A DNA stretch of 64,000 nt from Babesia bigemina (taxonomy: Eukaryota): contig NC_027218.1 of the NCBI RefSeq assembly GCF_000981445.1, positions 682,001 through 746,000 of the forward strand. The letters are read 5' to 3'. Shown one piece after another: positions 3,655-58,543 of this stretch. The notes beneath the pieces were generated by a model. The model was not told the origin of the DNA, did not search any database, and worked only from the letters and a program-made list of their open reading frames with translations. Made by a program: the position numbers and the translations under genes. Each line of letters starts with the position of its first letter. The stretch's first letter is position 1.

Positions 3655-4793
3655 ACGTGAGGGGTGCTCTGCTGCGCTTGTTGCATACTGTTATATGTTG
3701 ATACGCTTGGATTGGGTCAATGTACTCGCGTTTATCAGGCTATCCTCCATGTAGTCGGTATTGGCTGCGGTGTCCGCGTATTGCTATTGCCGATTGCATG
3801 TAACGTCATCCATCCTGTCTAGGCTCAAAGGCCACCCACAGAGACATGATCTTCGTTGCGATTAATGTTCCTTATCGTATTCGATGCCACTTCAAAAGTT
3901 GTATGCTAGGTGAAAATTATTCCCCGCATCTCCTTCACCAGCTCACTTTCTCTTCTTCTTGGCCGGCTTCTCGAGCAAATTATCGTGGTTGGTAATCCCT
4001 GTATCATCAATGACTGCAGTGGTATTCTGTCATTACTCCAGTGTTATGCATGACGGCTTGTAGTTTATGGTAATCTCAGTCATCTCCTTCTGCGCAAGCC
4101 ATCGTTGGCATCCTCCACCAAAGCCTGAATATCATTTTACTCATACAACTGCTTGTAATCCCCGTATATCTCCTCTGTTATTCCTAGTTGTAGTCCACAT
4201 TCTTTGTGTTGACGTCACAATTGAATACATCACGCATCGAAGTCCCTCATGCCTTGTGAAGCCTGTATAGAGACCAATACTTCCATTACCGCATTACTTT
4301 TCCAGTTCACACCTGCCGTCATTCACAACATCCGCCGATCATATTCCCTTTCACATATAGGCAGACCTTTCTTCATAACTTGGATGCCCATGAGTGTCGG
4401 TGGGGCTGACATCGAATCTCAGATAGGCTAAGGAGGATTCACTGCGAACATTAACTTCCAAGTTGCATAGGGTTGATGGTTACTTCGCGTGGTTGAATGG
4501 ATTAATGTAGTATGGAGGCATAGTACCGCCCCCCTCGGAGCGGATTTAACTTCTAAGTTGTCTGTATCAGCGAAGTCACGCATATGTGAGCAGTACGTGT
4601 GCTTGTTTTCCGTGAATCATAAATAAACCGATCATAAGGTACACGCGTGACTAATGTAGATTGGGGCAGTATAAAAGGTCGATTCCACACGTAATTTACT
4701 TATCGCATTTTGCAGCAAGGTGGGTATCTGCAACCTCTAATTGTTGGTGGGCATATTGAAGTTGCAGATACATTTATCTCTCAATCCTTCAAG
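3655..4793 (+). promoter_or_regulatory. ~1.1 kb conserved ves 5' module (copy 1)
   Basis: Aligns with 48537-49692 and, more distantly and inverted, with ~20161-21350. Contains TATAAAAG at ~4670 and ATCGCATTTT...TGGTGGG before the ATG. Confidence 0.75.
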
Positions 4794-7700
4794 ATGGCAC
4801 CAAAGAAGCTCACCGACTGCCCGGAAAATCTTCGGGAATCTATCGATTGGCTGATTCAGATTAAGAATTGTGGAGATAAGAAAGGTCTTCAGAATTTGGC
4901 TGATGCTTTGGGTACGTTGATTAATCAGGCTATTGAAGATGCCCAAAATAGTCTTAAAGCCGAAGAAGAGAAACTTAAATGCCCTATAATATACGAGGGG
5001 AATCTAACTTACTGCCAGTTTAATGATAGGTCCCTTAAGGAAGCTGAAAAGAAACTCGAGGAACTTAAAGATAAACAGGACCTTGAAAGCGAATCTCAAA
5101 AACAGCGTTTAGAAAAAGAGATCGAGCAGTTTAAACTTTCTAAAGAAAAATGTATTCAACATACTCACCCACGGTATCCTGATAGTAAGGCCTTGAAAGA
5201 TGTTAGGGCCCAGCTGAAGGCTTCACAGGAACTGCATGAAAAACTTAAACCATTTTTGAATAATCTTCAGAGAACTGCGAAGAATCCTAATGATGGCATT
5301 TTGCATAACCTTTGTTCCGGTCTAGAGACATTTCTGGGTTTTGATGCCGCAACCAAAGGCTACACTGGTAAGGGAATTGTCTACTCCGACCTTGACCGGC
5401 TGTGTGATGCAGTTATGGCGTTTATCGTCAAATGTTTAAAGGAAAACAAAAGCTTGTTGATGCATTATTATTCTGAAATCGTAGATAAGATAGGCTTGCT
5501 AGAAGGCTCTATAGGCAAAGGTTTAAGTGTAGAGGGATTAAGGAGGGCCATTGATACTGTTAGAGATGGGTTGGAGGGTTATGAGGGTGGTATGGATGTA
5601 AGGATACAAAATTTTTTGGATAATGTGAAATCGCTCAATAACGATCTATATGTTAAAGTTAAAACTATTGAATCATTCACTGATAAAGATTTTATTAAAG
5701 TGTCAACTTCTTTTCGTGATTCTGTTGAAATCGCCATCCGGTCCATCGCTACTCTTAGGGATAATGAGGCGGGATTCAAAAATATTGATAAACATTTGAA
5801 AGGCAAATTGAACATCTCGTTAGAAAAAATTGATGAACGTATAAAAGGGTTGCATAATGCTTTACAAGATGATATTTTCGTAAAGGCCGTAAACACATTG
5901 CAGTCGACGTTCGACACGTTGCCGGATGAGGTAGAGCGATTCATATCAAATAATGTCACGGGTACAATTAGTGGACACAGGGACACCGTTGTAGATTTGA
6001 AAAGAAAAGTTAAGGAACATATTGACGTATCTCGCGATAATTTTCAAGTAGAACGTCTTCGGGTATGCAAAGTAGACATGGAGAAGGCGATTGCAACCTT
6101 CAGAAAAAACGCTAAGAACTTGGGAGGGTTACGAAGTGATGTTGTTAAGAAGGCTATTGATGAGATAGAATACACATTGAAGGATGAAGTAGATAAAGTT
6201 GAGGATGAAAGTGCATTGAATAGTTTAAAGATTAATCCTGTCGGAACTCAGATTGGAAATATTACCAAGGAGATTAATCGACACTGTGAAGGAAAATGTA
6301 TGGGCGGGCTGCGTGGTCTGGAAAAGTCGATTGGTGAGCCTAAAAAATTGTTCGACACTCATCATCAACGTAGGTTGTCGGAATTGGTTAAACACGCCAA
6401 AACGAATATAGAAAAAACTCTTAAGTGCGCTGATGAACACGCCAAATATTTAGGAGGGTTAAGGAACGATGCGGTTGTAGGAGCTATAAAGGTCATCCAG
6501 GAAAAGTTGGATGAAGTTAATGGTGGATCCTATGACATTGATACGTTTGTAAAGCTGACAAATTTAAAAAGTCAGACGGTGGATGTGGAAGTCAAGAAAA
6601 TTCAAAATGTGCTCAACGACGGTGCTGAGACAATTATAGTTGGGTTGCGTGGTTTGGAAGGTAGCATTAAAAAACCCGAAGATCTATTCAATAAACATAA
6701 AGACACGTTATTAGAATTTGCAGAAGAAGTCCAAAACGATTTTCAAACGGCCGTATCTAAAGCTCAAGAGTGCATTACGAGGCACGGAGGGATGCATAAT
6801 AATAAGATCATGGGTGCTTTTAATTCAATTGAAAAGACGTTGAAAGGAATCGAGACGCCCAATAAAAATGCTGAAGACTTGTCCCAAGTTGTTGCTCTGG
6901 TTGAAGGTCAGCTTGCTCAGGTTAATGGTGCTGTGCGTGCTAGTGCTCCAACCCTTCAGTCTACATTGACAGCAGAGTTCACCGAACTTAAGCACAAGAT
7001 TGGCGGCGTTTCAACAACTCTCACAGATTCTGAATTAAAGTCACTGATCACTACCACGAGGTTGTACATTGTGGACGCGATATGCGCAATTGAATGCCAC
7101 GGGACAAACACCAACGGCACAAAGAACAATGGCGCGTTCGCCATTGTAACAGCTCTATATGGAATTTTAGGAAGGCTTAACGAACCTTTCAGAGACTTTA
7201 TCACGACGTTGCATATCACTATTAATTCTGATCTTATAACACTCCAAGATGTTAACGGTGCTTTCAAGGAGCAGGTAAAAACCTCAGGAACTACTACATT
7301 GTTAAAGAGTTTAAATGTAGGAAACCTACAACCCGAATTTGATAAATCTCGTAAAGCTGCGCTAAAGCCATTGTTGGATAGGGTTAAGAATGCTTTGACT
7401 GGAGCCGCCGAAGGTGTAGAATCGATGCTACTAGGAATGCAAAGCAGTCACAAAGATGAACTAGGAAGTGCGTTAAGGAATCTTAAAAGGCCCATTGAAT
7501 CTCTAAATACCACGTCCAAGTTAATGGACTTTGAGTCGCAGCTTGGTGTGGTAGATGCCGCATTTGATAAAGTTAGAACGCAAATGTCCATACCTTTGTT
7601 TGACCAGCAAATCCTCATACACGTCCAAAAGTCTATTGCGGAAATAAAAAGAGAACTCAGACGCACGATAATAACTGCACAGGCCACCGCCTTCCAAACT

Positions 7701-10700
7701 GCAATTGACATTGCCAGAGCCGAAGTTGGCAGTGTGGTGCAAAAGGCCAAGACTGCAATACAAACAGCTGAAAGTGAATATCAGTTGGAATTAAATAGGC
7801 TCTGTGCGAATATTGATGCTGCTGCACAAGATTTGCAAAATAAAGCCAGCAAACATCAAATTGGTGATGCCACTGCTGCTATAATCAAACCATTTTCGAA
7901 TATCACAAATGCTATCACCTCCAAATCAGTTTTCTCCGCAGATATTGCCGAACGCCAACAATATTTTGATAATCTCCAATCTCAAATTACCAATACAATA
8001 GCAACCATACATGAAGCATACAAAAATGCATACAGGAGTGCTGCTAAGTCCTACCTCAGCGGGGCGATTGGATCAATTAAAAAAGCAGTCGGAGATGCGG
8101 AAACAGCGTACGGAAGTGCGATTGATACGCATATTAAGGCTATAGGAGGCAAGGTTGTTCATATTAAGGAAGAAAAGTTTAAAGTGGCTGCTGAAAGAAA
8201 TAAATTAGCGATGTTGTTCGAAGAATCTTTCCGGCAATTGGAGGCGGCGGTCAAAGAAAAGTCTGCCTTCCGAAAAGATCTCACTGGTCGTACAGAGTGT
8301 TTCAATAATCTCAAAACATTGATTGAAGACACAGTAAACACTCTCTCCACCGCCTACCAGAAGGCTTATCAAAGCTCTGCAAAGACGTATCTCAGTAATG
8401 CAATAAGTAAGATAAAAGAAAACGTCAATAATGCTGAATGGAATTATGTGGATGCGATTAATGTGGAAATAAAAAAAGTCAAAGAAACAATCACGGGCAT
8501 ACAACATATAGATTTTAAAGAAAAGGCAACAAGGGATGGATTAACGGAACGACTTACTCCAGTATTCAAGACATTGCAAGAGAAGGTTAAAACTTGTTGT
8601 GCCTTTAAAACAGATTTTGTTAACCGTGCAACGTGTTTTACCAGCCTTGAAAATCTCATTAATAGCGCCATTGCTGGGATCATACATGCCAGCGAAACGT
8701 TTGATAACTGCACCTCAATGGCGGAAAATTATCTCACTGAATCCTTTAACGATGCTTCAATAAAGATTACTTCGCTTGGTAACAAAATCCACGATCGAAT
8801 TAAACAAGCGTTCGACAAAATCATACTTGAAGTTTACACCATGTATTCAAAAGACAAAATTGCACATATGAAAGCTTTGAATACTTGCATTGAGTGTATG
8901 ATGCAAGAATTCAAGAGCATTATAGAAGAAGACAAACGAACTGGGATGAAAGGGTTGTTAAAGGCTCTTAGCGGTGTTAACCCAAATTATACGAATCCTG
9001 AAAATAGGCTTGAGAAGCTTAAAGATAAACCGTTAGCGAAAGAATTAGCTCAAGAAGTAAAATCGTATTTAGATTCAATCTTCATATACGTTTGGAATGA
9101 CATATACGCCGTAATAGGATCTCAGTTTACCTCCAAGAACCTATATAAAACAAAGGTTGAGAAAATTAAAAACAACCTGAACGAGTTATTCAACCATCTC
9201 ATTGTCGAAAAAGGCAAAATCTATAACTACGATCATAAGTTTGTTGACTTACTCGGAAATGTTAAAAGTGTATTGATCAATATGTATCCTCAGGAATTCG
9301 GTGCTACGGAATATCCAGTTTTGGATGGTATCAGAGAAGGATTGAACGGTTTCACCGAGCAATTAGGGTATGCATATATAAACAAATACGTTGGATCTAA
9401 ACCAATTGAGTGGCATGTAGATAAGCAACAGACGAAGCTTAGCCAAGATGCAACGCGCTGCGCCAAGATATTCCTCACCCTCATACCGGAGTGGCATAAG
9501 CATATACCCTATCTCAATAGGGAATGTAATAAAGGTTGTACCGACAAAAAAATATCACTGCAAGAACAGAAAATGAATAGTGGGATCACAAAGATTGTTA
9601 CAAATCCCCTCGGTCTCTGGTTTGATTGCCGTGGTTACAAGGTATCTGGGTTCGACAAGCAAGAGGGTGAATTGAGAAATAACAGTGGTTGCACAGGTAA
9701 CAAGATCGGTGAAAATCTTAAGACATTTTTCGACAAGAAAAACACTTTTGGCAACCTTTTGTACTACCTTTATGAATATTATAAAGTCTGCCATATAAAA
9801 CATATTCCTAGCCCCAAGCCTCCGACCACAATCTGTCAGATGCTCTACTGGCTCTGTGGCTTGGAGTATACTCCTATGTACGAAAACATGAAAACGTATC
9901 TTCAGGAGTGGTATAATGATTTCAAAAAAGAGCATGAGATCGAGAAAGCATTATCGGCCACCGTACCGAGAAGAACAGGTCACGAGGTCGTCACAGACTT
10001 AAATCTCGGTAATCTACTTGGGTCGTACCAAAATGTCACCCTACGTGCATCTGATGTATTGCTTACCATCCTTGGATACGGAGACGCAGACGGGAGATAC
10101 GCCTGTGAGTTCAACACTAATCCATACAATCTATATTACCCGACTGACAAAAGCAAATGCTTTGATATGCTGGTCGAGATATGCTTGAGACTAAACCACC
10201 AATTGCGTTTCCTGTATATGCAATGTCACAACGGCCCACGTAGCAGCGGTTGGGCCGATTGCCGATATGGTAAGTACATAGCAGGGTCGGCGTGGAACTG
10301 CAACAGGCTGCAATGTGTTGAGCAAGGCTGCGACCAAAACTGCAAATGGCATAATGACTGCGGCGTCAAGTCACCGCTACAATCGTTCTTAGAAGATGGT
10401 CTGAAAGGCTTTTTGCCACATCAGTTCAGCTCACCCAGTTGCAAGTTAGAATGTTCGGTAAAGAACCACAACGGCATCCCGTGCAAGACTCCAATGGGCT
10501 TTGCTGACATAAGCATAACGGCATCGTGGACCAGGACTGGACACGATATTAAGAAGGTGCTTGACCCTTTCTGCGGCACACTACCGGATTCACTGAGCCT
10601 ACTCTGTGCCTACTTCCTATGTCTGCTGCGCCGACCTCCTCAGACCCTGTGTGACATGTTCGCGTTTTATGAGAACTTCTTTGAGCATTGGAGCGGGCAT

Positions 10701-11591
10701 TACGACAGTGTGCACAAGGAACAGGTCAAGCAACATAAGCACGATGCATTTAAAGCTGTGGTTGCAAGTGCTAATTTCGGAGTTGAATACGACGGCTTGG
10801 ACCCTACCACCATGTTCCGTAGCAGTAGCCATTCTGGAGATGATGCCACTCACCTCAAAGGCGACCTGTTTGCTATTGTTAACTGCAAACCAAATGAGAA
10901 CCCAGTCCACCCCTGCGGGTCATACTTGCAGCCACTATCATACGAGGTGCGTTGCGTATTCACCGAGAAACTCGCTGCCGACTACCTATCTTGGATTGTC
11001 TACATAACAGAAACGTTTTACAATCTACTCAACGACCTGTATAACAAATGCACTAAATGTTGTATCCAACAACAAGCAGACTGCTATGGCAGAATATGTG
11101 CCAAGGGTTGCACAGTGGACTCCACACCTGAACCAGCTGAAAGTAAAATGCTCACGGACAAAACGCATGGCGAGTTGTGCAACTCCATAGTCCAATGTGC
11201 CGGTATTCATCCCACAATATATGCAGCAGGATTCACATTTGGCAGCCCGTGGAGTCTATGTGGCGATAACGGCATTGGAAAGAAACGGTCATGTAAAGAT
11301 TTCTGTACGGCGTTAGGAATGGTTGTTGCGAAATATAATGCTATTTATAACCTTGTGAATAAGCACATCCCCAATTTCCTGTGGGAAATCAGACACAAAT
11401 TCTTCTACACCCTCGTGGCTCTCTGGGCCTACTCCCTCCTCTACCTGTTGTACGTCATCATCGGACGCCTAGACACACTCCACGTCCGCTCCCACTTGAG
11501 ACTGCCATCATCGCACAAGATATCCGCCCAGTCACTGCTTGCCACTGCACGTCTCAACAACCTCGCCAAGCTCGCTTACCTGCGGACGTGA
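4794..11591 (+). CDS. Variant erythrocyte surface antigen (VESA/ves)-like protein A, ~2265 aa, intronless
   Basis: N-terminal KKLTDCPENLRESIDWLIQ, GYTGKGIVYSDLDRLCD, long helical middle, Cys-rich SPLQSFLED/CKTPMGF region, C-terminal TM followed by RLDTLHVRSHL..PSSH. Confidence 0.92.
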   Translation: MAPKKLTDCPENLRESIDWLIQIKNCGDKKGLQNLADALGTLINQAIEDAQNSLKAEEEKLKCPIIYEGNLTYCQFNDRSLKEAEKKLEELKDKQDLESESQKQRLEKEIEQFKLSKEKCIQHTHPRYPDSKALKDVRAQLKASQELHEKLKPFLNNLQRTAKNPNDGILHNLCSGLETFLGFDAATKGYTGKGIVYSDLDRLCDAVMAFIVKCLKENKSLLMHYYSEIVDKIGLLEGSIGKGLSVEGLRRAIDTVRDGLEGYEGGMDVRIQNFLDNVKSLNNDLYVKVKTIESFTDKDFIKVSTSFRDSVEIAIRSIATLRDNEAGFKNIDKHLKGKLNISLEKIDERIKGLHNALQDDIFVKAVNTLQSTFDTLPDEVERFISNNVTGTISGHRDTVVDLKRKVKEHIDVSRDNFQVERLRVCKVDMEKAIATFRKNAKNLGGLRSDVVKKAIDEIEYTLKDEVDKVEDESALNSLKINPVGTQIGNITKEINRHCEGKCMGGLRGLEKSIGEPKKLFDTHHQRRLSELVKHAKTNIEKTLKCADEHAKYLGGLRNDAVVGAIKVIQEKLDEVNGGSYDIDTFVKLTNLKSQTVDVEVKKIQNVLNDGAETIIVGLRGLEGSIKKPEDLFNKHKDTLLEFAEEVQNDFQTAVSKAQECITRHGGMHNNKIMGAFNSIEKTLKGIETPNKNAEDLSQVVALVEGQLAQVNGAVRASAPTLQSTLTAEFTELKHKIGGVSTTLTDSELKSLITTTRLYIVDAICAIECHGTNTNGTKNNGAFAIVTALYGILGRLNEPFRDFITTLHITINSDLITLQDVNGAFKEQVKTSGTTTLLKSLNVGNLQPEFDKSRKAALKPLLDRVKNALTGAAEGVESMLLGMQSSHKDELGSALRNLKRPIESLNTTSKLMDFESQLGVVDAAFDKVRTQMSIPLFDQQILIHVQKSIAEIKRELRRTIITAQATAFQTAIDIARAEVGSVVQKAKTAIQTAESEYQLELNRLCANIDAAAQDLQNKASKHQIGDATAAIIKPFSNITNAITSKSVFSADIAERQQYFDNLQSQITNTIATIHEAYKNAYRSAAKSYLSGAIGSIKKAVGDAETAYGSAIDTHIKAIGGKVVHIKEEKFKVAAERNKLAMLFEESFRQLEAAVKEKSAFRKDLTGRTECFNNLKTLIEDTVNTLSTAYQKAYQSSAKTYLSNAISKIKENVNNAEWNYVDAINVEIKKVKETITGIQHIDFKEKATRDGLTERLTPVFKTLQEKVKTCCAFKTDFVNRATCFTSLENLINSAIAGIIHASETFDNCTSMAENYLTESFNDASIKITSLGNKIHDRIKQAFDKIILEVYTMYSKDKIAHMKALNTCIECMMQEFKSIIEEDKRTGMKGLLKALSGVNPNYTNPENRLEKLKDKPLAKELAQEVKSYLDSIFIYVWNDIYAVIGSQFTSKNLYKTKVEKIKNNLNELFNHLIVEKGKIYNYDHKFVDLLGNVKSVLINMYPQEFGATEYPVLDGIREGLNGFTEQLGYAYINKYVGSKPIEWHVDKQQTKLSQDATRCAKIFLTLIPEWHKHIPYLNRECNKGCTDKKISLQEQKMNSGITKIVTNPLGLWFDCRGYKVSGFDKQEGELRNNSGCTGNKIGENLKTFFDKKNTFGNLLYYLYEYYKVCHIKHIPSPKPPTTICQMLYWLCGLEYTPMYENMKTYLQEWYNDFKKEHEIEKALSATVPRRTGHEVVTDLNLGNLLGSYQNVTLRASDVLLTILGYGDADGRYACEFNTNPYNLYYPTDKSKCFDMLVEICLRLNHQLRFLYMQCHNGPRSSGWADCRYGKYIAGSAWNCNRLQCVEQGCDQNCKWHNDCGVKSPLQSFLEDGLKGFLPHQFSSPSCKLECSVKNHNGIPCKTPMGFADISITASWTRTGHDIKKVLDPFCGTLPDSLSLLCAYFLCLLRRPPQTLCDMFAFYENFFEHWSGHYDSVHKEQVKQHKHDAFKAVVASANFGVEYDGLDPTTMFRSSSHSGDDATHLKGDLFAIVNCKPNENPVHPCGSYLQPLSYEVRCVFTEKLAADYLSWIVYITETFYNLLNDLYNKCTKCCIQQQADCYGRICAKGCTVDSTPEPAESKMLTDKTHGELCNSIVQCAGIHPTIYAAGFTFGSPWSLCGDNGIGKKRSCKDFCTALGMVVAKYNAIYNLVNKHIPNFLWEIRHKFFYTLVALWAYSLLYLLYVIIGRLDTLHVRSHLRLPSSHKISAQSLLATARLNNLAKLAYLRT

Positions 11592-11594
11592 TGT

Positions 11595-11670
11595 AATTAC
11601 TCACGACCGTGAAAATACTCACCACCTTGACTCCACTACTAGCTCACCTAACCCACCTATCAGTAACGCA
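11595..11670 (+). repeat. Conserved C-rich ves 3' element (CTCACCACC...CACCTAACCCAC)
   Basis: Similar sequence follows all four ves stop codons (also 14370-14445 minus, 56455-56525 plus, 59170-59245 minus). Confidence 0.7.
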
Positions 11671-12299
11671 ACGCATAATGTAGTACAAGTGTTAAATTGG
11701 CGTTTCGCGGTCAAATGTGATTATGTGCCACAACAGTATGGTGACAATGGAGAATGATGCTTAAAATCCGATGTCCTGGTATAGTGCATGGAACGTAACA
11801 ACAAAGAACAAGCCGATGCACCGTTCTTGATGCAATCGTATGCGACTCAGGCGATGACGTGGTTGACTAGGATAAGAGTTGAAACGTGTTCATGGGAATG
11901 GGAGTGATGGTGGGACACCAGATGTCATTTGGTGTTATATACGGCATAGTTGAATGGGGTTTATAAAATATATCGTTGTGCTAACTCGTATAGTGGTCTT
12001 GCAGTGTAGTTGAACAGTGATGTGGGAGGAGTATAAGAAATGTCGTCCCGACAGTATTCGTGGATCTTATAGAGTTGCATTCGATGCTATCAGGGTCATG
12101 TTTCTAACGTTCTTCGTTAACGCGTGCCTTTTATATAAATTTACGCCATATTATAACTGTCAGATCTATGCGCAGATTGGCCCCATTACCACAGTTATGG
12201 CACAGCACAATTTTTAGTGTATCCAATGCATATCATCATTACTGCAAGAGTGGTAAAACTTTGAGGTACGTTGTTGTATATATTGCAGGTTAGATTAAA

Positions 12300-12497
12300 A
12301 TGGGTAATTCTACGTCGGGTATGTCGGAGCCAAAAAACATTGCAGGTTGCGTATTTTCAGCAATTGCCGCAGTCTTCATATTGCTGGTGATATTCTTTTT
12401 TCCATTTCCCGAGAAAGATGGTTCTTACAAGTTCGGAATATGGAATCTATTTCGTGAGATTTCAAAATCTTATGCCGTATCAAAGAATCTCTCATAG
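12300..12497 (+). CDS. ves-linked single-TM microprotein, 65 aa (possible N-myristoylation, MGNSTS)
   Basis: AAAATG start, one TM helix, then amphipathic IWNLFREISKSYAVSKNL. A positional and pattern homolog sits at 57177-57356. Confidence 0.6.
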   Translation: MGNSTSGMSEPKNIAGCVFSAIAAVFILLVIFFFPFPEKDGSYKFGIWNLFREISKSYAVSKNLS

Positions 12498-13266
12498 TTT
12501 CATCTAGTCCACTTTTTTCGGGTACCAATGTCACATCTGTAGTTAATTTAGAAGTGTTCGCCATATTCGTGTTTTGAGCAAACATTCGTCAGGCCACGTG
12601 AAACTATGTTTCAAAATTTTATGAGCGAAACAGAGCCCTCATTGGGGCAACGACTCCCAGTATATCCTAGTCCATATAAAGTCATTGTGCGCAGAAATTC
12701 ATTGTATTGGTATTACACGGGCACTAACACTTAACGTTTTAAATGTTGCCGCGCTTTGCACAGTATCTTAACGGTATCAGATGAGGATATTGTTCCTTTC
12801 TTCCGTGTTTTGTGGAGTCTGTCCATAAACAACTATTCATTAATGTGATACATTAAATAGCATGTAAGACTTCGTACTATAACAGTGAATTGATCTAGAA
12901 CGTCACGTTGGTGTACTGGATTGTCCTAGAGTGAGCGCATTATCTGATTTTGGGGGAGTAATGCCTTGACGCCTTTGGGGTGTGAAGCCCTGTAATACAG
13001 GAGCTAACAGCGGATGAATGATTCGATGCATTCGACTAGGACGTAAAACCAGCCACCATTGTCAATCGTCTTCAACTTGCCAAGGCACAATCAATGCTGG
13101 CTTGGCATAATCCAGGAACGTTGCGCTGGGTACGTGCCGACGAAAGTCTACGTAAGACTTAATCTTGCATTATTACATTAGTCTTGTGTCTCTTATCCAT
13201 ATTGCCGTGCGATCAGTGCGATAAGACAAAGTGTTGGACCTATTTGTAAACTGCGATGCAAAACGT

Positions 13267-13713
13267 TCATTTGCGGGTAAAACAATCGCGGACCTTGTGG
13301 AAAGGCCGAATGCGAAAGAGGGTCATGACGCATACGACGATTAGGATGATGAAGACGAAGACTATGAGAGGAACGATGAGACCGGAGGTGTCATTTTCAT
13401 TGGTTGGAAGATATTGACCGGCGTTAAGACGCTGTGCACTTGTGGAATGTTCTTGACTGTCGGAAGAGGCGGCCTGAGTTGAAGCCGATGCAGAGCGTTT
13501 CTGTCGACAACATTCACATTCACATTTATTCTCCTTGCCACTACATTGGGTTTTACACCCCTTCGGAAGGCATTGCTTGCGGCTTTTGCGCTCGCTGTTG
13601 TACACCATACATGTACTGCACTTTCTAACACTACATCCGTCACAACACCAGGGACAGCAACTACAATTCCCGAAAAAGTTACAACTAGTATCGCAATAAC
13701 ACTCAAAACCCAT
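13267..13713 (-). CDS. ves-linked cysteine-rich single-TM protein, 148 aa
   Basis: ATG 13713, 18 Cys in the first ~70 aa, S/T/Q linker, TM, tail FRIRPFHKVRDCF. Clear paralog at 57996-58397. Confidence 0.85.
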   Translation of the reverse strand: MGFECYCDTSCNFFGNCSCCPWCCDGCSVRKCSTCMVYNSERKSRKQCLPKGCKTQCSGKENKCECECCRQKRSASASTQAASSDSQEHSTSAQRLNAGQYLPTNENDTSGLIVPLIVFVFIILIVVCVMTLFRIRPFHKVRDCFTRK

Positions 13714-14445
13714 TTCCCCCCTTTTCCTCAACTTCAACCTACAAAACCATCAATCACATACCTCAACCTCGGACAGACACTCTCCAATCGCTGTAACGGT
13801 AGCAGCCAGGTGACCGCCATTTATTGCACCGCCAGTAACGTCACAATTGTGCATCAATAACAGCATCGATGCGTTTCAGGTGAAGCATGTGAACGGTATC
13901 CCGGTCGTGGCATGCAGGTCAATCGGTGCCAGTTACCCAGTCAACTCCATCCACCACAGACCAAAGTTGCCAAACCCTATGGATTCTGTTACATTTGAGT
14001 TACAATGATTGCTTATGCAAGCTACTGTACTCGGTTAATGAGCTTCTCATTCACACTGTTACCATCACTGTAACATAACCACGCCGTCCACCGGCCATCA
14101 CGTAGGAGAGGCACGGCTATATTCATCGCCAATCGACGGGCATGTTAGCCATCATGCCAAACAATCACGTTGCATATGACGCGCTTTTATATGTCACGGT
14201 ACTCGTCAACAGCCTCCATTAGTAGCCTATCACCCAGCATCGCTGCCCACTAGAACCATGGGAGGACGTTGGCACGTTTCACAGCTAACTCACAACTCGA
14301 CATCCCAAAACATGAACCCACAAATGCATGAACTGCACTGACTGCCAATTGCTGAGTGGATATTAGGTAATACATTTGGGTGAGTATTAGGTTAGGCGGT
14401 GGGTTGCTAGGTAGTGGGTTAGGTGAGTGGTGGTGAGGTGATGTA

Positions 14446-17400
14446 TCAAGGTTGAAGGTAGGTGAGCTCGGCAAGTTTGCTGACACGTGCAGCGGCGAGT
14501 AGTGACTGCGCGGCAATGCGATGTGACGATGGTGAGTGCAAATGCGATTTGATGTGGAGCAGGTCGAGGCGGATGACCATGATGTGGATGAGGTACAACA
14601 AGGAGAGGAGCCAGAGGGCGACGGTGAGCCAAATAAAAGGCTGTCTGATGTCATAAAGAAACTTCGGAATTGTTCTGTAGGCCAAAGTGAATAGGACGTT
14701 CTTCTCATTCAGCACGTTCTTTAATGCGTTGCATAGGTCCTTACATGTGCGCTTAGTTTTGGTATCTGTCGCGCCGTGAAGGTTTGATATACTTCTCAGT
14801 ACGAAACCATATTTGGACAATGTCGGACGAGTGAATGGGCATTGAGCTATTGATGTGCAACCCGCTGAGTGAATATACGAATGCGATGCAACACAATTCT
14901 TAACGCAGCTCTTGTCGTAGCATCTGCTGCCTGGCTTGTTGCAGTTATTACAACATTCATCGTATAGTTTTTTGAGTAAGTCGTAAAATGTTTCCGTAAT
15001 ATAGACTATCCACGAGAGATACTTATCGGCATTTTCAGATGAAAAGGCTAACCATGTGTTAATGCCAAAGGGTTGTAGGTACCGGCCGCATTGAGCAGAT
15101 GGCACGGAAGAATTTTTGCAACCAACCAGACACAACAAGTTTCCGTCCTTATGTTTTTCGCTCGGCTCCTTGGAGTTGTTGATAACGGAAGCAACGTCGA
15201 ATGTTGGATAGTTGACGCCGAAGTACGCATTGGTGACAGCCGCTTCAAATGCGTGTCTCTTATGCGTCTTGTCTGCATCCATGCCTTTACCCTTGCCATG
15301 CCACCCATTGAGTAGATTGTAGTAGAATGAGAACATATCGCCTAATGTTTGAGGCGGTCTACTCAATACACATATCAAAAAACGACACATTTTGGTAAGT
15401 GGCTTCTCTGCGTCACCGCAGAACTCACTGAGAACGTTGCTTAGATATTCTCCCGTTTTCGTATGCGAGGCTTTTACGCTAAGGTCAGCGAATCCCATGG
15501 GCGTTTTGCATAGTAAGCCACGGTGGTTAGGTGCTGCACAGGATAGCTTGCAATCTGCCTTTTTATATGGATGCGGTAGGAACCCAGGAAGACCGTCCTC
15601 AAAAAACGACTGAAGAGGTGACTTGAGTCCGCACTTTGGGTGCTGGTCACACGTTTGACCACACATTTGGTTGACCTTTTGGTCAGCGATTTGGTTACCC
15701 ATTTGGTTGACACATTGCTTGTCATTGCACCTCCAGTCTGACCCGGCGACGTGCCGACCGTAGTAGCAGTCGCGCCAACTAACTGAGTCGGATGTACGAT
15801 AACACTCTACATGAAGGAAGTACAATTGATCATATAATCTTAGCAACAATTCTACTAATAAGTCTAAACATTGACTCCCTTTACTAGGGTATAAGAATTT
15901 GCCTGCGTTGGCGTTAAAGTCGCAAGCGTAGCGGCCATCAGAATTCCCATGGCCGAGAATGGCGATGAGGGTTTTTTCGGCATGATGGCATACCAGTGTC
16001 AACGTCTGTGACAGGTCCGTTGCGCTGATGGTTTCTGGATACGCTGGCAAAGAGTCAGGATCTTCGTTAATAGATACGATAAATGTATCGCTTTTTGTGG
16101 CATCGTCTTTCTCTGGTTTCTCAAACAGGTCACTAAAGGCGTCATGTGATAGCGCATTATACACGGCATTATACGGAAGGCCAGCGAGCCATTGAAGAAT
16201 GTCACAAATGGTTGACGGATGCTTGGTCGCAGGAGTTGGTAGGTGGCAAGTACGGTAATAATTGACAAGGCAGTCCTCGTAAATCATCTCAAGCGCGCGT
16301 GTAGCTGCCTTATCTACATGGTAAACATTTTGCCCATCGCCTACAAGTAGTTTATAAATATGCGAACCTTGCATACTACCTTTGTCCTGCAGCTCACCGT
16401 TTTGTCGTCCTTTCTCTGATACATTGTAACCACATGTCGTGAGAAATTCGCCAAGTTCAGTTCTGGTGTTAATTCGAGAAGCACTAGCAGTGTTACACAT
16501 TTCTTTCACCTCATTCAAGTTATTGAACAAAATGTTCATCATCGTCAAAAACACTTTTGCGGCGTTACGGCTTTCCTCTGTTGTATTCTTAGAAAACGGT
16601 TCGTCCCAAGTGATCGGCTTAGAACCATCATACACGCGGATGTACGCCTTTCTCAGCTCTTCATGGAAGCGTGTGAGCCCGTCCTTGATGGCGTCGAGTA
16701 ACATCGGATGCTGATGACCGGAGAACTTAAGGGGCGACATGCTATCGAGGACACTTTTCAGCTTACCAAGATTGTAGGCGAGACTGTGAGTGAAGTGGCC
16801 GGAATTGTTAATTTCGTCGAGCAGCGTCACAAACTTTTTTTTGACCAGTCCAAATGCGTTAAAAGATTCATTATCTTCCGTGAATTGTCCACCTACGTGC
16901 TCCCAAAGACTAATTAAAAAGTCTCTCACTTTGCCAGGAAATCCATCTAATTTGGTCCTATCCGTGATCGGCAGAGCAGAATTAAGTTGGGATTTCACAG
17001 CCTTCAACAACCCTTTGACACCCGTATTGCCGTCTATTCTGCATTTTGATATGATAGCCTCGCGCTGTTTTTCAATCAAATGTTTTAATTTGCCAAGTTC
17101 TGTTCTCTTCCTAAAAACGTGTCGGTCTAAAGCGTAACTTTTAATGCTGTCTCTAGCTAAACCTACACGTTTCGTTAGTTCTGCTTTAATATTTGTAATG
17201 CAATTCTTTGCACCATCCTTTAATGTGTTGTCTACGAATTTTACGGCTTCGGCAAGAATATCAGTCAAATTGCCATTTTCATTTTTCGTGCTGTCAGTCC
17301 CCAGTATTTTTACAATGTCAGCATTAATTGATTTTAGATCGGCCGCAAGTCCATACATATCGCCGTTGTTCAAACCACTCTGACCAAGCATTGTATTCAA

Positions 17401-20160
17401 ATCATTCAGAAGCGTTTGAACGCCTTTATTGTTTGTTTGACCTCTCGTCCCCCCCTCTTCGGCGAGTCTCCTCAATTCATTGCAAAGTGTTTGGAGTTCA
17501 CGATTAACTTTTCCGACTAGTAATTGGAAGGTGTCGTCATAGAAGTTACTATCTGTAGCACCGGGATCAATGGTTCGATGGGTGCCGCTCTCAATTTTCC
17601 CCAAATATTCGGTTCCATTAAGCTTATGTTCAATACCTTTGATCATTTCTGGGAATGAGCCTTCGTTTGCATGACCACTAAGCTTTGCATCCCCTGTTAA
17701 ACCGGCTACTTTGCTTTGTTTGATGAGTCCATCGTAATCTTCAAAGTTTTTAACAACAAGTGTCTCTACTTTGCCGTCACCGTCGCTGTCCTTTCCAAAA
17801 TCTTTTTGCAGTATGCCAAGAATCCTACCTTCAAAGTTGTAGATGGAATCAGATAGGGCGGAGGAAGGGGAAATAGCATGTACGGAGGTGATGGATTGCT
17901 TAGCTGCCTTTCCAACATTACCCTCAAGCAGGTTAGCCACATCAATCGCGACCTCCACGTTACCGATGTGACACCGTAGGACAAGTTCATCTGTTTGATC
18001 TCCGGTATGCCTGGCGACACCTACGAGTTGATGGAGGGTGTGCTGCACGGCCCGAGTAATATTGGTATCGTTAGTAAGGTGACCAGTTTTAGTAATTGAT
18101 AACTCCTGGCCCGTCTCTATACCCCTCACTATTTTGTCAGCAAGTGTGACAAGTCCTGATGCCTTAATCTTCAACCCAACTAATTTGGAAAACGTACTGC
18201 AAACGAGTTGAACAACGGTGACGTAGCTTCGAATTGCGTTGGTGCTTGCAGTATAAGATTTTGCTGCGTCAACGGCTTTCTCAACATACTCTTCCTTCAG
18301 CTGGTCAGCAATGATACGTGCGAGTCCTTCGGTGATGTCCGTGTTCTCACGTATACTGTTCCACTGATCATATGGCGGTTTAAATCTATCCTTCATTTGG
18401 AAGTACTCATTCAGTAATCCTTTAACCGGTTCTTTTCTTAGAATATCAGCAATCCATTTTTGAACTACACCTTCAAAACCTTGTGTCCCTTTTTGCTTGA
18501 ACAAATCGGCATACTTCTTCACCCCGTCCACTATCTGCTTTAGGCCTTCGTCTCCTTCTTCACCGTTAATGATTTCTTTAATTTTAGCATTAATATCCTC
18601 TAATAGCTGCTCCTTAATGTACTTTCTCAGTGCACCCTTAATGTTATCTTTCACAGTCTTCACTCCTTTCCTAACCGCCCGGTCCAAGAATAAGACCTGC
18701 TTAAGCGCATTTTCAACCTGACTTTTCAACTCCTCTTTAGCCGCCTTAGCAACGCCGCGAAGCTCATCTGCTCTTGTTTGCAATTTTATGGCGGCACTTT
18801 CAACATTATTCCATTTAGTGGGCTTTGCGCCGTCTGCTCTCAGTGTAACCTCCGCCAATATGGCTTTTGTCTTACTTGATGCCGCCGAGACAACAATATT
18901 CGCCTGATCAAACCACTTATTCAAATGACTCTGAACCGTTTTCAAAGCACTTTCAACGTGACTAATGGGCGCATGGATTTTGGACTTAAACTCCTGTTTC
19001 AGATTTTTCTCAAGTCTTTCCACCTGGAGATGAATTTCGGCGGCAACATACCTATCCAAATCTCTCAACTCATCTCTCACGGCTCCACTCAATTCTCTCA
19101 GCTGCATCACATCCATAATATTTGACTCACTGAGAGCCTCAACCGCCGTCTCTATTTTTTCAAAATCATTCGCAACCTTCGTTTTCAGCGGTGTATCGAG
19201 CGCATTTATAGCCGACTCTGCTGACTTAATTAGCGCAGTAAGTCCATCAGTAACTACGTCCTTCCACTGTGCAACCACATCCTCGTACTTCTTGGTAGTC
19301 AGTGAATCCTGCAAGTTCCTGATATTTTTATCAATTTGAGATTGCAATGCATATAACGTACCATTGGAATTGTTTTCCACAACTGCATTGATTCTTCTGT
19401 TAACCTCAGCATCATAGTAACCAAGCACGGCGCCTGTATGACTTAATGTCAGAGAAAATTCATGCGGGCCTTTATACATTTTTTTACTTATTTCTTGCGG
19501 TAATTTATTTAAATGGCCATTATCATCGTATGTTTTAACTGCATCATCATCTTGCACTGCTTCAAGCACACCACTCAAAAATCCCATCACCCCGTCACAC
19601 AGCCTGTCAAGGTCAGAGTACACAATGCCCTGGCCAGTGTAGCCTTTCGAAGATGGATTGAAGCCGAGGAAGGTTGATAGACCATTACAAAGGTTAGTTA
19701 ATAAGCCTTCTGAATTTTTGTTGAAAGTATTAAGATTCCCACTAAGTTCCTTTAGTTTCGCCAACTTGACATTCACATCCTTCAAAGCTGTATCCTTGGA
19801 GGACTCTATATAATGATGTTTTTCACATAATTCTTTAGCATATTTAATTTTCTCTAAATGGTCATTCAAAGAGACATCTGCAAGAAATGTAGGTTCCTTA
19901 AGGAGGTTTTGAAGCTTATCAATTGACTCCAATCTAGGACGACAACATTCGTAATATTTAAAAGATTCGATAAGCGTAAAAAGATGGCTAATAATACTAG
20001 TATATGCATCCCTAATTGCGTCTTCAATCAACTTTTTCAAAGCCTTCGCCAACTCACCAAGACCTCTACCATCACTTCCATGCCTCACCTGGATCAACCA
20101 GTCGATGGCTTCCCTTAAATTTTCAGGACAGTCCGTAAGCCTCTTGAATTGCGGTGCCAT
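14446..20160 (-). CDS. VESA/ves-like protein B, 1904 aa, intronless
   Basis: MAPQFKRLTDCPENLREAIDWLIQ, GYTGQGIVYSDLDRLCD, Cys-rich C-terminal region, TM plus RLDLLHIKSHLHSPSSH. Confidence 0.92.
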   Translation of the reverse strand: MAPQFKRLTDCPENLREAIDWLIQVRHGSDGRGLGELAKALKKLIEDAIRDAYTSIISHLFTLIESFKYYECCRPRLESIDKLQNLLKEPTFLADVSLNDHLEKIKYAKELCEKHHYIESSKDTALKDVNVKLAKLKELSGNLNTFNKNSEGLLTNLCNGLSTFLGFNPSSKGYTGQGIVYSDLDRLCDGVMGFLSGVLEAVQDDDAVKTYDDNGHLNKLPQEISKKMYKGPHEFSLTLSHTGAVLGYYDAEVNRRINAVVENNSNGTLYALQSQIDKNIRNLQDSLTTKKYEDVVAQWKDVVTDGLTALIKSAESAINALDTPLKTKVANDFEKIETAVEALSESNIMDVMQLRELSGAVRDELRDLDRYVAAEIHLQVERLEKNLKQEFKSKIHAPISHVESALKTVQSHLNKWFDQANIVVSAASSKTKAILAEVTLRADGAKPTKWNNVESAAIKLQTRADELRGVAKAAKEELKSQVENALKQVLFLDRAVRKGVKTVKDNIKGALRKYIKEQLLEDINAKIKEIINGEEGDEGLKQIVDGVKKYADLFKQKGTQGFEGVVQKWIADILRKEPVKGLLNEYFQMKDRFKPPYDQWNSIRENTDITEGLARIIADQLKEEYVEKAVDAAKSYTASTNAIRSYVTVVQLVCSTFSKLVGLKIKASGLVTLADKIVRGIETGQELSITKTGHLTNDTNITRAVQHTLHQLVGVARHTGDQTDELVLRCHIGNVEVAIDVANLLEGNVGKAAKQSITSVHAISPSSALSDSIYNFEGRILGILQKDFGKDSDGDGKVETLVVKNFEDYDGLIKQSKVAGLTGDAKLSGHANEGSFPEMIKGIEHKLNGTEYLGKIESGTHRTIDPGATDSNFYDDTFQLLVGKVNRELQTLCNELRRLAEEGGTRGQTNNKGVQTLLNDLNTMLGQSGLNNGDMYGLAADLKSINADIVKILGTDSTKNENGNLTDILAEAVKFVDNTLKDGAKNCITNIKAELTKRVGLARDSIKSYALDRHVFRKRTELGKLKHLIEKQREAIISKCRIDGNTGVKGLLKAVKSQLNSALPITDRTKLDGFPGKVRDFLISLWEHVGGQFTEDNESFNAFGLVKKKFVTLLDEINNSGHFTHSLAYNLGKLKSVLDSMSPLKFSGHQHPMLLDAIKDGLTRFHEELRKAYIRVYDGSKPITWDEPFSKNTTEESRNAAKVFLTMMNILFNNLNEVKEMCNTASASRINTRTELGEFLTTCGYNVSEKGRQNGELQDKGSMQGSHIYKLLVGDGQNVYHVDKAATRALEMIYEDCLVNYYRTCHLPTPATKHPSTICDILQWLAGLPYNAVYNALSHDAFSDLFEKPEKDDATKSDTFIVSINEDPDSLPAYPETISATDLSQTLTLVCHHAEKTLIAILGHGNSDGRYACDFNANAGKFLYPSKGSQCLDLLVELLLRLYDQLYFLHVECYRTSDSVSWRDCYYGRHVAGSDWRCNDKQCVNQMGNQIADQKVNQMCGQTCDQHPKCGLKSPLQSFFEDGLPGFLPHPYKKADCKLSCAAPNHRGLLCKTPMGFADLSVKASHTKTGEYLSNVLSEFCGDAEKPLTKMCRFLICVLSRPPQTLGDMFSFYYNLLNGWHGKGKGMDADKTHKRHAFEAAVTNAYFGVNYPTFDVASVINNSKEPSEKHKDGNLLCLVGCKNSSVPSAQCGRYLQPFGINTWLAFSSENADKYLSWIVYITETFYDLLKKLYDECCNNCNKPGSRCYDKSCVKNCVASHSYIHSAGCTSIAQCPFTRPTLSKYGFVLRSISNLHGATDTKTKRTCKDLCNALKNVLNEKNVLFTLAYRTIPKFLYDIRQPFIWLTVALWLLSLLYLIHIMVIRLDLLHIKSHLHSPSSHRIAAQSLLAAARVSKLAELTYLQP

Positions 20161-21350
20161 CCTTAAATCTCAAGGGACAACCGTATACACAACTTCAATG
20201 TGCCCACCAACTATTTGAGGTCGCAGACCCTCGCTGCACTGCGAAAATGCGATACGCACTGGGCGGCTAGCAAACTGTTCTCTCAGTGCTCCAAACTACG
20301 TTACTTAAACATCTACCCGATTGAGTCAGTATTAGATATTCACGACAAAACTAGCATCCGCCTCGCTCACCTAATCCAATCGCCAGTGCCCAGACAGCTC
20401 GAAATTCTAATCCGCTTCGGAGGTTACGTCAGACCTCCCAACTGCCGTGCAATGTTCAACTTACTTATGAAATAACTAGCGTTGAAGCAAGCTACGTTCT
20501 AATTTTCGTATCAAATTATATCCCGTTCCAGGAAAGTTCATGGATTGCCCCACTGCCACTGCACGGTTTTAACTTAATACTAATGCGGCATTCCTAAATG
20601 TGACTCAAGCAACTGGGCGGAAATTACACGAATATGAGCATGCTGTCATCGTGAAGCAAAAAGGGCAATGGCGTTTCACCCCTCCGCATCCCTTACAGGG
20701 AACGGAACCCTCGATGCGTGATCGATGAAAATGTGACATCGGTATGGAAGATTACTGATGTAACTGTGAAGCACAGTCAAGATCTATCTGGCTGAAAGGC
20801 GATTGTATGAGTGAATAGCAGTAAGGGCAAGTAGAGGACCATGGTAATTATGGAAAGTGCCATGCCAAACTCAGGAGTCTCATAAGGGCTGAGGGCATAC
20901 TCTACCAGAAGACATCATAGTAGATAGTATGAAGCACGCCTTCACAACCGTTGAGAACGGGACTGTCCGCGAAGGCAACCGGGTGGAGACGGGGCATAAA
21001 AGAAGAGGAGATGCAGGGCCGTTGAGGATATGAAGCGGAGAGCTTTCATCTAGCAGATAAGTCATCGTTATAAGTTATGTGATGAGGTGCATGACACCGA
21101 GAGAAGACTGACTCCGTGAATGACCATCTGACCCGAACTGGATGGATGCCCTCATGGATGGCACCAGTTACGATCGGCAACGGACCGACGTGGATCCCGC
21201 AACCGGTTTCAGCGTGAGGCGGCAACGCTGTGAAGCCGAAAATAGGCTTTAGCCACGTAGCCACATAGCACAGTATAAAATGAGAGAAGGTAATAAGATA
21301 GGTCTAACTCATAAACATCATGAGGCCACACCGTATGTAAATATTGGCAG
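20161..21350 (-). promoter_or_regulatory. Diverged ves 5' module upstream of ves B
   Basis: Minus strand shares ATCGCATTTT, GTTGGTGGGCA.ATTGAAGTTG, AGCGGATT and TGCTAGATGAAA (21055, ~895 nt from the ATG) with the other two modules. Confidence 0.6.
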
Positions 21351-56448: not shown

Positions 56449-57176
56449 TGCAATTACTGATGACCGTTAAAATACTCACCACCTTCACTCCACTGCTAGC
56501 TCACCCAGCCCACCAATCATCAACTCAACACATAATGTAGTAGACGTCATAGGCTAGTTCTGTGGTAAATTCCTGACGATTACTATTGCGTTATCTGACG
56601 GTAGCAATGCGGTGCATCGTTTGGATGAGCGTTTGGCCATACATCTCAGCAACTGAAGAGTGCTGTCATGGATATTATAGTGATTATAATCATGTCATGT
56701 AGATGAATGATGTGCTGTTTATTGGATAGATGACAAGGAGATATGTGGAGGCATGACAGTGAAGTTAACCGATGTGATGGGTACTGGAAAACGCGGTAAC
56801 GGTGATTTATTCGCAACCTTGTAATAACCATCGGGGTTTTGAACTAGCAGGTAATAACGGATACACGGTCATTAAAAAGTCATTAGCTTGACATTGTTCT
56901 GTGTAATGTTGGAGTAGACAGGTCGTGGATCTTATATTAGTTGTGCTAATACCATCATGCTGAAAACACCTTATGAGTGCGCGCGATGGCTGTGTATCAT
57001 ACCCGTATTGCAGAATCGCTGTACTTTGGAGTTCGGTTGCCCCAGAACAAGGTGAGCAGCATGCTTGACGTCTGGATCTGTATAGTGTATGTTGCACTGC
57101 ATTAGGAGTTCTAAGTGCTTGAGGTGCGTTGTTCATTGAATTGTAGCGGTGTTTAGAAATTGAGATTTCGTTGAAG

Positions 57177-57356
57177 ATGTCTGATGAAGATGACTGGAAG
57201 GCCGGTATAGGCGCCGCTGTTGGCGGTATTATTGGTTTCTCGGCCCTCCTTGTCTTGGTCCTTTACATCATGGGTAAAATATACAACATAAGCCTCGGAG
57301 AGATATTCGGCCAAATACGTGATGGATTCCGTGATTCCAAGCCTAAACTCCAATAA
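57177..57356 (+). CDS. ves-linked single-TM microprotein, 59 aa
   Basis: AAGATG start, Gly-rich TM helix, then LGEIFGQIRDGFRDSKPKL. Same position and post-TM pattern as 12300-12497. Confidence 0.62.
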   Translation: MSDEDDWKAGIGAAVGGIIGFSALLVLVLYIMGKIYNISLGEIFGQIRDGFRDSKPKLQ

Positions 57357-58397: not shown

Positions 58398-58420
58398 ATT
58401 CCCGCTCCCCTCCCACTCCC

Positions 58421-58543
58421 CTCAACCTGCAAACATATCAATCACTCAAGCAACGCACTCACCAACTGCAACACGTGCCACTGCCGCTCCCAGTCCTCTC
58501 AACCTGCAAGCATATCAATCACTTAAGCAACGCACTCGCCAAC
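58421..58543. repeat. Local direct duplication, ~46-nt core, 77-nt period
   Basis: CTCAACCTGCAA.CATATCAATCACT.AAGCAACGCACTC.CCAAC at 58421-58466 and 58498-58543. Confidence 0.85.

What the first reader, a model, noticed from the sequence alone, without database searches (positions are those of the whole stretch)
3655..21350. Repeated four-gene cassette: ves -> microprotein -> <- Cys-rich TM protein <- ves
Seen: the same order, orientation and similar spacing occur twice (3.65-21.35 kb and 48.5 kb to the window end). The + ves is always the YLRT-tail subtype, followed ~710-730 nt later by a 59-65 aa TM microprotein. The - ves is always the YLQP-tail subtype, followed ~730-850 nt later by an 18-Cys TM protein. 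Established: B. bovis VESA1 is a heterodimer from head-to-head ves1alpha/beta pairs, with SmORF genes nearby. Inference: this tail-to-tail unit may encode a heterodimeric variant antigen plus two dedicated small membrane partners (chaperone, export adaptor or anchor). I do not recognise these partners as described families.
Basis: partly seen in the sequence, partly recalled or inferred. Interest (0 to 1): 0.9.

Follow-up and report, generated by a model that had tools for sequence, protein, structure and literature searches.

The report
Overlooked small-gene family beside Babesia ves
The four-gene block is one duplicated stretch, not a dedicated machine, but its cysteine-rich gene belongs to an unnamed family of dozens of small, highly variable membrane proteins that sit next to the cattle parasite's variant-antigen genes and are likely a second set of variant surface antigens.

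Summary
The two blocks are collinear paralogues, so the repeat is one duplication, not independent recurrence. The subtype pairing fails: YLQP ends 39 of 44 Babesia bigemina ves hits, the two YLQP genes are only 44% identical and not sisters, and YLRT is a three-gene ves1b clade. The 18-Cys gene is the real finding. Profile searches give 36 database relatives (20 of 20 looked up are B. bigemina 'hypothetical proteins'). They share a fixed Cys scaffold with about 22-25% identity between the cysteines, a Ser/Thr/Pro stalk, one transmembrane helix and one of two conserved tails. Of 19 examined, 13 lie directly beside a ves1-class gene, often ves1a and often at an island edge; only 2 lie between two ves genes as here. 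One microprotein looks like a headless type II member; the other is only its positional counterpart. Best reading: an undescribed family of small variant membrane proteins, each a satellite of a single ves1 gene and likely surface-displayed. Expression, topology and binding are not shown; no member appeared in one RNA-seq table (0 of 12) or one proteome table (0 of 8).

The parts
3655..4793 (+). Upstream/promoter region of the first YLRT ves1b gene; homologous to about 48540-49692, with a 200-nt block (4338-4537) 99-100% identical between the copies
4794..11591 (+). ves1b-like gene, YLRT clade, 2265 aa, C-terminal TM
12266..12288 (+). 23-nt GT..AG element, predicted 5'-leader intron of microprotein A
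   Evidence: splicing inferred
12300..12497 (+). Microprotein A ORF, 65 aa (58 aa from the second Met), one TM helix plus amphipathic helix; likely a headless, diverged type II family member
13267..13713 (-). 18-Cys single-TM gene, type I (RIRPF tail), 148 aa; exact sequence not in the protein collection
13739..13761 (-). 23-nt GT..AG element, predicted 5'-leader intron of the first 18-Cys gene
   Evidence: splicing inferred
14446..20160 (-). ves1b-like gene with the common YLQP tail, 1904 aa
20161..21398 (-). Upstream region of the - strand ves, up to the Vps52 gene; no ATG ORF with a TM helix or family match
49693..56448 (+). Second YLRT ves1b-like gene, 2251 aa, 57% identical overall and 90% over the last 430 aa to the first
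57124..57146 (+). 23-nt GT..AG element, homologous to 12266-12288
57177..57356 (+). Microprotein B ORF, 59 aa, one TM helix plus amphipathic helix; positional homologue of A, no significant protein similarity to A or to the family
57996..58397 (-). 18-Cys single-TM gene, type I, 133 aa; exact sequence not in the protein collection
58427..58560 (-). Duplicated leader with two predicted short introns (about 58504-58560 and 58427-58462)
   Evidence: splicing inferred
59247..64000 (-). Second YLQP ves1b-like gene, cut by the window end (1583 codons open)

Best explanation
The 18-cysteine genes belong to an unnamed Babesia bigemina multigene family of small single-pass membrane proteins that lie beside ves1 genes and likely act as a second, miniature set of variant surface antigens; the four-gene block is two ves-plus-satellite units facing each other, duplicated once. 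Shown: a head with 18 fixed cysteines and variable sequence between them, a Ser/Thr/Pro stalk, one TM helix, a short basic tail of type I or II, no N-terminal hydrophobic signal, and in the window a position 0.7-0.85 kb past a ves1 stop on the same strand. Inferred: each is its own spliced transcript; it would be switched on or silenced with the chromatin of its ves locus; it would leave the parasite by the same signal-peptide-free route as VESA1 and present a disulfide-held head on the infected red cell, the conserved TM and tail doing the trafficking or anchoring while the head diversifies by exchange between copies. Microprotein A is likely a headless relative; microprotein B its diverged counterpart.
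For: Family: 10 hits from a two-sequence profile and 35 of 36 hits from a six-sequence profile against 1.84 billion representatives; 36 distinct database proteins in all, 26 with the type I tail and 12 with type II, 2 models holding both; 20 of 20 looked up are B. bigemina hypothetical proteins on four chromosome-scale and four small contigs. Scaffold: 17 Cys invariant in 12 full-length rows. Variation pattern: non-Cys head identity 0.22 (type I) and 0.25 (type II) against TM+tail identity 0.58 and 0.97; heads of the two types intermix in a weakly supported tree. Charge: 0 K/R in the 10 residues before the TM, 4-5 in the 15 after, the positive-inside pattern for a tail-in, head-out protein (rule recalled). 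VESA1 has the same layout, no signal peptide and one C-terminal TM (PMC6630957, PMC9477259 passages). Context: 13 of 19 examined members directly adjoin a gene labelled ves1a (6), ves1ba (2), ves1b (1) or placed in a ves1 cluster (4); 4 more are 2-3 genes away. 22 of 36 database models carry translated leader motifs like the leader upstream of 58397, so the leader travels with the gene. Microprotein A is the top hit of the type II TM-tail profile among 1915 six-frame segments of the window (E 0.006); 7 of 5000 block shuffles reach its score.
Against: No expression shown: 0 of 12 member tags in a B. bigemina RNA-seq table and 0 of 8 in a proteome table; most neighbouring ves genes are missing from the RNA-seq table too and the reads come from other isolates, so this is weak. 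The tail is only 13-24 residues, the geometry of tail-anchored proteins whose head stays in the cytosol (recalled), which would put the head inside the cell. Only 10 of 36 database models have a full head; 13 have the second half and 13 none, so many copies are mis-modelled or broken. dN/dS for the window pair is a modest 0.54. For 2 of 19 members no ves neighbour was seen, one near AMA1. Strand of the database members was not available, so '3-prime satellite' is shown only in the window. Neighbourhood rests on consecutive accessions, which on small contigs (4 cases) may cross contig ends. Microprotein B does not score against any family profile.
Confidence: 0.48

Rival explanations
1. Tail-anchored proteins with a cytosolic, zinc-binding cysteine head that work inside the parasite or on the inner face of the red-cell membrane as adaptors; their variability is hitch-hiking on ves recombination.
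For: TM within 13-24 residues of the C-terminus and no signal peptide; CC, CxC and CxxC spacing as in metal-binding proteins (recalled); tail Cys could be palmitoylated (inference).
Against: Basic residues follow the TM rather than precede it; no Cys-to-His exchange at the 17 invariant positions in 12 rows; head diversity is far above that of the adjacent tail in the same genes, which simple hitch-hiking does not predict.
Confidence: 0.24
2. The small protein is a co-switched accessory chain of the neighbouring VESA1, binding it through the conserved TM and tail and needed for its export or display, one small gene per ves gene.
For: Tight linkage to ves1 genes (13 of 19 adjacent); type II TM+tail 97% conserved; VESA1A was not detected in B. 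bigemina, leaving the partner of VESA1B open (PMC4066756 section 23); a type II gene lies two genes from a co-dominant VESA1B gene.
Against: Neither tail type tracks a ves class: type I adjoins ves1a, ves1ba and ves1b-cluster genes, type II adjoins ves1a, ves1ba and ves1b. The known export factor BbVEAP is single-copy and conserved (PMC9477259 passages). For smorf, proximity to ves has given no evidence of coordinate transcription (PMC6630957 passage).
Confidence: 0.13
3. The family is a decaying passenger of ves 3' flanks, copied with ves genes but mostly silent or broken.
For: 26 of 36 database models lack a full head and some read the head region in another frame; no member in the two expression tables examined.
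Against: 12 copies keep an open frame and 17 invariant Cys while three quarters of the other head residues differ; 7 of 9 DNA gaps between the window pair are multiples of three; pN below pS.
Confidence: 0.1
4. One reading: a fixed four-gene cassette encoding a YLRT/YLQP heterodimer plus two dedicated partners.
For: Same order twice in the window; one further locus has the order ves1b, unlisted gene, type II gene, ves1ba between inward-pointing housekeeping genes, and one has a member between two ves1b-cluster genes.
Against: The two copies are one duplication; YLQP is the default tail and the two - genes are not sisters; 7 members have a non-ves gene directly on one side; no shared promoter in a convergent pair.
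Confidence: 0.05

Closest known systems
B. bovis smorf family (PMC6630957 passages)
   Same: Small multigene family of about 40 members interspersed among and juxtaposed with ves genes; species-restricted; hypervariable regions.
   Different: SmORFs have a signal peptide, an RxxL motif and no TM; these have no signal peptide, an 18-Cys head and one TM. No smorf homologue was found in B. bigemina (PMC4066756 section 22).
B. bigemina ves2 (PMC4066756 section 22)
   Same: Short genes in ves regions of the same species.
   Different: [quoted passage not shown]
VESA1 (ves1a, ves1b, ves1ba of B. bigemina; ves1alpha/beta of B. bovis)
   Same: The four large genes are ves1b-like. The small proteins share the layout: no signal peptide, variable Cys-rich N-terminal part, one C-terminal TM, conserved basic tail.
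   Different: One tenth the size, no detectable sequence homology; the window's ves pairs are convergent, not head-to-head as in the B. bovis locus of active transcription.
Plasmodium RIFIN/STEVOR and other small variant antigens (recalled; Pfam Rifin hit weak)
   Same: Small, multi-copy, variable head with conserved cysteines, conserved TM and basic tail, encoded near the major variant-antigen genes.
   Different: No signal peptide or export motif; Pfam Rifin score 17 bits against a cut-off of 32; not homologous as far as tested.

Membership tests
ves1 / VESA1 (four large genes) | Conserved C-terminal domain with single TM homologous to other ves1 | tested here: met
   298 hits at E<=0.001, the 120 listed all B. 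bigemina or B. ovata; closest named relative 92-94% identical and labelled ves1b
B. bovis-type LAT pair (heterodimer locus) | Head-to-head pair sharing a bidirectional promoter | tested here: not met
   Both pairs are convergent; upstream neighbours are DUF3273, Vps52 and an oxidoreductase gene
B. bovis-type LAT pair (heterodimer locus) | One gene from each of two distinct ves1 classes | tested here: not met
   YLRT clade nests among ves1b-type sequences; YLQP genes are generic and not sisters; none has the other tail type seen among the hits
B. bovis-type LAT pair (heterodimer locus) | Co-transcription and physical heterodimer | not testable with these tools
   No reads could be laid on the window
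smorf | N-terminal signal peptide | tested here: not met
   No hydrophobic N-terminal stretch; heads start with the Cys array; no dedicated signal-peptide predictor was available
smorf | No TM domain; RxxL motif with A/B repeats | tested here: not met
   One strong TM helix (KD19 2.5-3.6); no RxL/RxxL in the first 70 residues of either window Cys-rich protein
smorf | Sequence homology to B. bovis SmORF | tested here: inconclusive
   No direct comparison; 20 of 20 named profile hits are B. bigemina, 16 hits were not named
ves2 | Homology to the 5' end of ves1b, no TM | tested here: not met
   Head profile gives 0 hits in 120 VESA-like proteins; TM present
6-Cys (s48/45) proteins | s48/45 domain with signal peptide | tested here: not met
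   No such Pfam hit in 12 full-length members at E<=0.01
Variant surface antigen (works-like claim) | Multi-copy, variable head with conserved TM and tail | tested here: met
Variant surface antigen (works-like claim) | Expressed, surface-exposed and clonally switched | not testable with these tools
   Published tables showed no member; no localisation data

The most novel reading that the evidence does not exclude
Every B. bigemina ves1 locus carries its own small cysteine-scaffolded 'light chain' gene that is switched on with it and assembles with VESA1 on the red-cell surface, supplying the second chain that the undetected VESA1A was expected to provide.
Probability: 0.12. Interest if true: 0.8.

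Novelty: new variant of a known kind. Interest (0 to 1): 0.55.

Why it matters
B. bigemina was described as having ves1a, ves1b and ves2 but no smorf. This adds a fourth family inside the ves loci, at least 38 copies counting the two here, hidden because its members are under 60% identical, often mis-modelled or unannotated. If displayed, it is a second variant antigen on the infected cell with a small head that is tractable for structure and serology, and a nearly invariant type II TM and tail that could reveal how Babesia exports membrane proteins without a signal peptide. It also offers a direct test of whether genes next to an active ves gene share its silencing, an open question for smorf.

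Tried and rejected
No whole genome is held for this window, so no genome-wide tblastn was possible. No RNA holder was listed for 11000-15000, so no reads were laid. A single-sequence search with the first Cys-rich protein found nothing; only the profile did. AlphaFold models of the 133-aa protein were poor (pLDDT 52.6 and 55.5); Foldseek gave no match, VIA-align none at Z>=5 and tested only the TM part, PDB sequence search none; the head fold is not determined. ESM Atlas gave no hit at 0.9 for the Cys-rich protein and no usable hit for microprotein A. Rfam: 0 matches. Rejected: BBBOND_0303530, a 153-aa gene after a ves, as a third copy - it sits in a two-member cluster and was not among the 20 named hits, sequence not seen. 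Rejected: a coding upstream exon for the Cys-rich gene - an in-frame upstream ATG in block 1 is ACG followed by stops in block 2. Rejected: read-through of the TGA - the residues after it resemble the type II end, but relatives read this DNA in different frames. Rejected: ORFs 12020-12217 and 57667-57846 as further cassette genes - not open in the other block. Derivation of the head from VESA1 Cys clusters: not detected. Earlier scan findings: none.
Full report
1. The observation. The eight ORFs, their strands, tails and spacings are as described. Both blocks are islands between housekeeping genes: a DUF3273 gene and Vps52 around block 1, a pyridine-nucleotide oxidoreductase gene before block 2. 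The organism is inferred to be Babesia bigemina: the 120 listed relatives of the first ves C-terminal region are B. bigemina or B. ovata proteins apart from the window's own two, and the closest named one is 93% identical.

2. The recurrence is one duplication. Self-BLAST aligns 3825-5470 with 48719-50375 (83%) and 8919-11685 with 53809-56542 (82%). The 2.8-kb intergenic regions align collinearly, strongly at both ends and around the Cys-rich gene, weakly in the middle; in segment tests the middle part upstream of the microproteins was not significant (12 of 200 shuffles) while the pieces just before and after them were (0 of 200 each). The upstream region holds a 200-nt block at 99-100% identity. 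Two copies of a duplicated block say nothing about selection for the arrangement.

3. The subtype pairing does not hold. Among the 44 named B. bigemina hits, 39 end in YLQP, 3 in YLQA, 1 in YLQT, 1 in YLRT. The three YLRT proteins are 90-94% identical over the last 430 aa and form one branch nested among ves1b-type sequences; the named one is labelled ves1b (PMC5660447 Table S2). The two - strand proteins are 44% identical to each other, 41-46% to the YLRT proteins, and fall in different parts of a tree of 60 sequences (44 B. bigemina, 12 of the B. ovata hits, 4 window; the other B. ovata hits left out). Their 3' flanks stay 81% identical, which fits the replacement of ves1 sequences at conserved positions reported in PMC4066756. 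In B. bovis the two chains come from head-to-head genes with a bidirectional promoter; convergent genes cannot use that.

4. The Cys-rich gene is a member of a large unnamed family. The window pair is 44% identical with pN 0.36 and pS 0.53 over 131 codons. Neither exact sequence, nor microprotein A, is in the protein collection (microprotein B not looked up). A profile of the pair found 10 relatives; a six-sequence profile found 36 hits, 35 of them family members and one an unrelated EGF-type TM protein (label recalled). Together 36 database proteins. All 20 looked up are B. bigemina hypothetical proteins; 16 were not named, so other species are not excluded. Anatomy from 12 full-length rows: 17 invariant Cys and an invariant Trp in a head of about 70 aa, a Ser/Thr/Pro stalk of variable length, one TM helix, and a short basic tail. 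Two tail types exist, type I (RIRPF, 26 models) and type II (FRFP, 12 models), two models fusing one of each. Non-Cys identity in the head is 0.22-0.25; TM+tail identity is 0.58 in type I and 0.97 in type II. Only 10 of 36 models have a full head, and 22 of 36 begin with translated leader sequence like that upstream of 58397, so the public models are often wrong or the copies broken. No Pfam family passes its cut-off.

5. Where the family lies. Neighbours were read from consecutive accessions in PMC5660447 Table S2 for 19 of the 20 named members. Thirteen directly adjoin a ves1-class gene: ves1a 6, ves1ba 2, ves1b 1, unlabelled members of ves1 clusters 4. Four are 2-3 genes from one, across genes absent from the table. 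For two no ves neighbour was seen; one lies in a 7-kb stretch of six genes near AMA1. Seven of the 13 have a non-ves gene directly on the other side (exoribonuclease, WD-repeat gene, 6-Cys cluster gene twice, cluster-12 gene, two other hypothetical genes). Two lie between two ves1 genes with at most one unlisted gene in between; one of these is the locus of BBBOND_0305310, a co-dominant VESA1B in PMC4066756. Strands were not available for these members. So the unit is one ves1 gene plus a satellite, and the window shows two such units facing each other.

6. The microproteins. Each has a 23-nt GT..AG element upstream, one TM helix and an amphipathic helix, and from the aligned Met they are 58 and 59 aa long. 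Chance is an unlikely source (1.5e-4 at a fixed point, 0.9% anywhere in 1.7 kb), yet they are not significantly alike as proteins (236 of 2000 shuffles; 175 of 3000 block shuffles). A scores 12.9 bits against the type II TM-tail profile, above 29 TM-like window peptides other than itself and the two Cys-rich genes (best 4.5); 7 of 5000 block shuffles reach this, one of six such tests; and it ranks first of 1915 six-frame segments, with an unrelated segment second at E 0.04. B scores 0.3 bits. I put A as a real headless relative at about 65% and both as real genes at about 70%.

7. Mechanism. Shown: family, anatomy, variation pattern, linkage to ves1. Inferred: separate spliced transcripts; shared silencing with the ves locus; export without a signal peptide as for VESA1 (layout from PMC6630957 and PMC9477259 passages); head-out display, from the basic tail and the variable head on a fixed Cys frame. 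The main rival is tail-anchored topology with a cytosolic metal-binding head, because the tail is short. An accessory-chain role is possible but neither tail type follows a ves class. Against all functional readings, no member appeared in the RNA-seq table of PMC9806345 (0 of 12 tags) or the proteome table of PMC4066756 (0 of 8 tags). The RNA-seq table also lacks the third YLRT ves and appears filtered; the window's small ORFs could not have been detected with the public models. Structure prediction and fold searches were uninformative.

8. What is known. I saw: PMC4066756 passages, section 22 part 1, section 23, supplement legends and table rows; PMC5660447 passages, section 28 and table rows; PMC10463595 parts 1-3 of 5; passages of PMC9806345, PMC9477259, PMC10975891, PMC6630957, PMC12064010. 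None of what I saw describes this family; it names ves1a, ves1b, ves1ba, ves2, smorf, mfs/mtm, ebh and a 6-Cys cluster. Searches: five topic searches and 12 member locus tags with 0 papers. Subscription papers and most supplements were not searched.

9. Verdict. The cassette as proposed is not supported; the small Cys-rich gene marks an apparently undescribed ves-linked multigene family, a membrane-anchored counterpart of smorf and ves2. New variant of a known kind, interest 0.55.

Noticed in passing
window 3940-4090 and about 48890-49070, - strand: Upstream of both YLRT genes, on the opposite strand, a conserved stretch reads like broken coding sequence (two adjacent stops at the same place in both copies); it may be the relic of a head-to-head partner. 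The third YLRT gene has a cluster-11 gene as its preceding accession.
   Followed up: partly
window 4338-4537 vs 49237-49536: A 200-nt block 260-460 nt upstream of the ATG is 99-100% identical between the two YLRT promoters while its flanks are 77-91% identical, suggesting recent gene conversion or a constrained promoter core.
   Followed up: no
window 12992-13160 vs 57718-57890: A nearly gap-free 56-61% conserved stretch downstream of the Cys-rich genes; an ORF of 59 aa on + in block 2 is closed in block 1, so probably a 3' UTR element.
   Followed up: partly
named records CDR97432/3, CDR94793/4, CDR94954/5, CDR93687/8: Four of 19 family members directly adjoin a gene of the B. bigemina/B. 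ovata 6-Cys cluster 3; two of those 6-Cys genes are strongly kinete-upregulated.
   Followed up: no
named records CDR96628-CDR96631: Order VESA1B (co-dominant in a proteome), unlisted gene, type II member, ves1ba between inward-pointing housekeeping genes in 13.5 kb; may be another facing pair of ves-plus-satellite units. Strands not seen.
   Followed up: partly
window 58407-58543: A 60-nt direct repeat (90%) duplicates the leader intron of the second Cys-rich gene; database models show the same leader repeated several times.
   Followed up: partly
window 4794-11591, 14446-20160, 49693-56448, 59247-64000: None of the four ves proteins matches a VESA family in Pfam at E<=0.01, so Pfam alone would miss them.
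   Followed up: no
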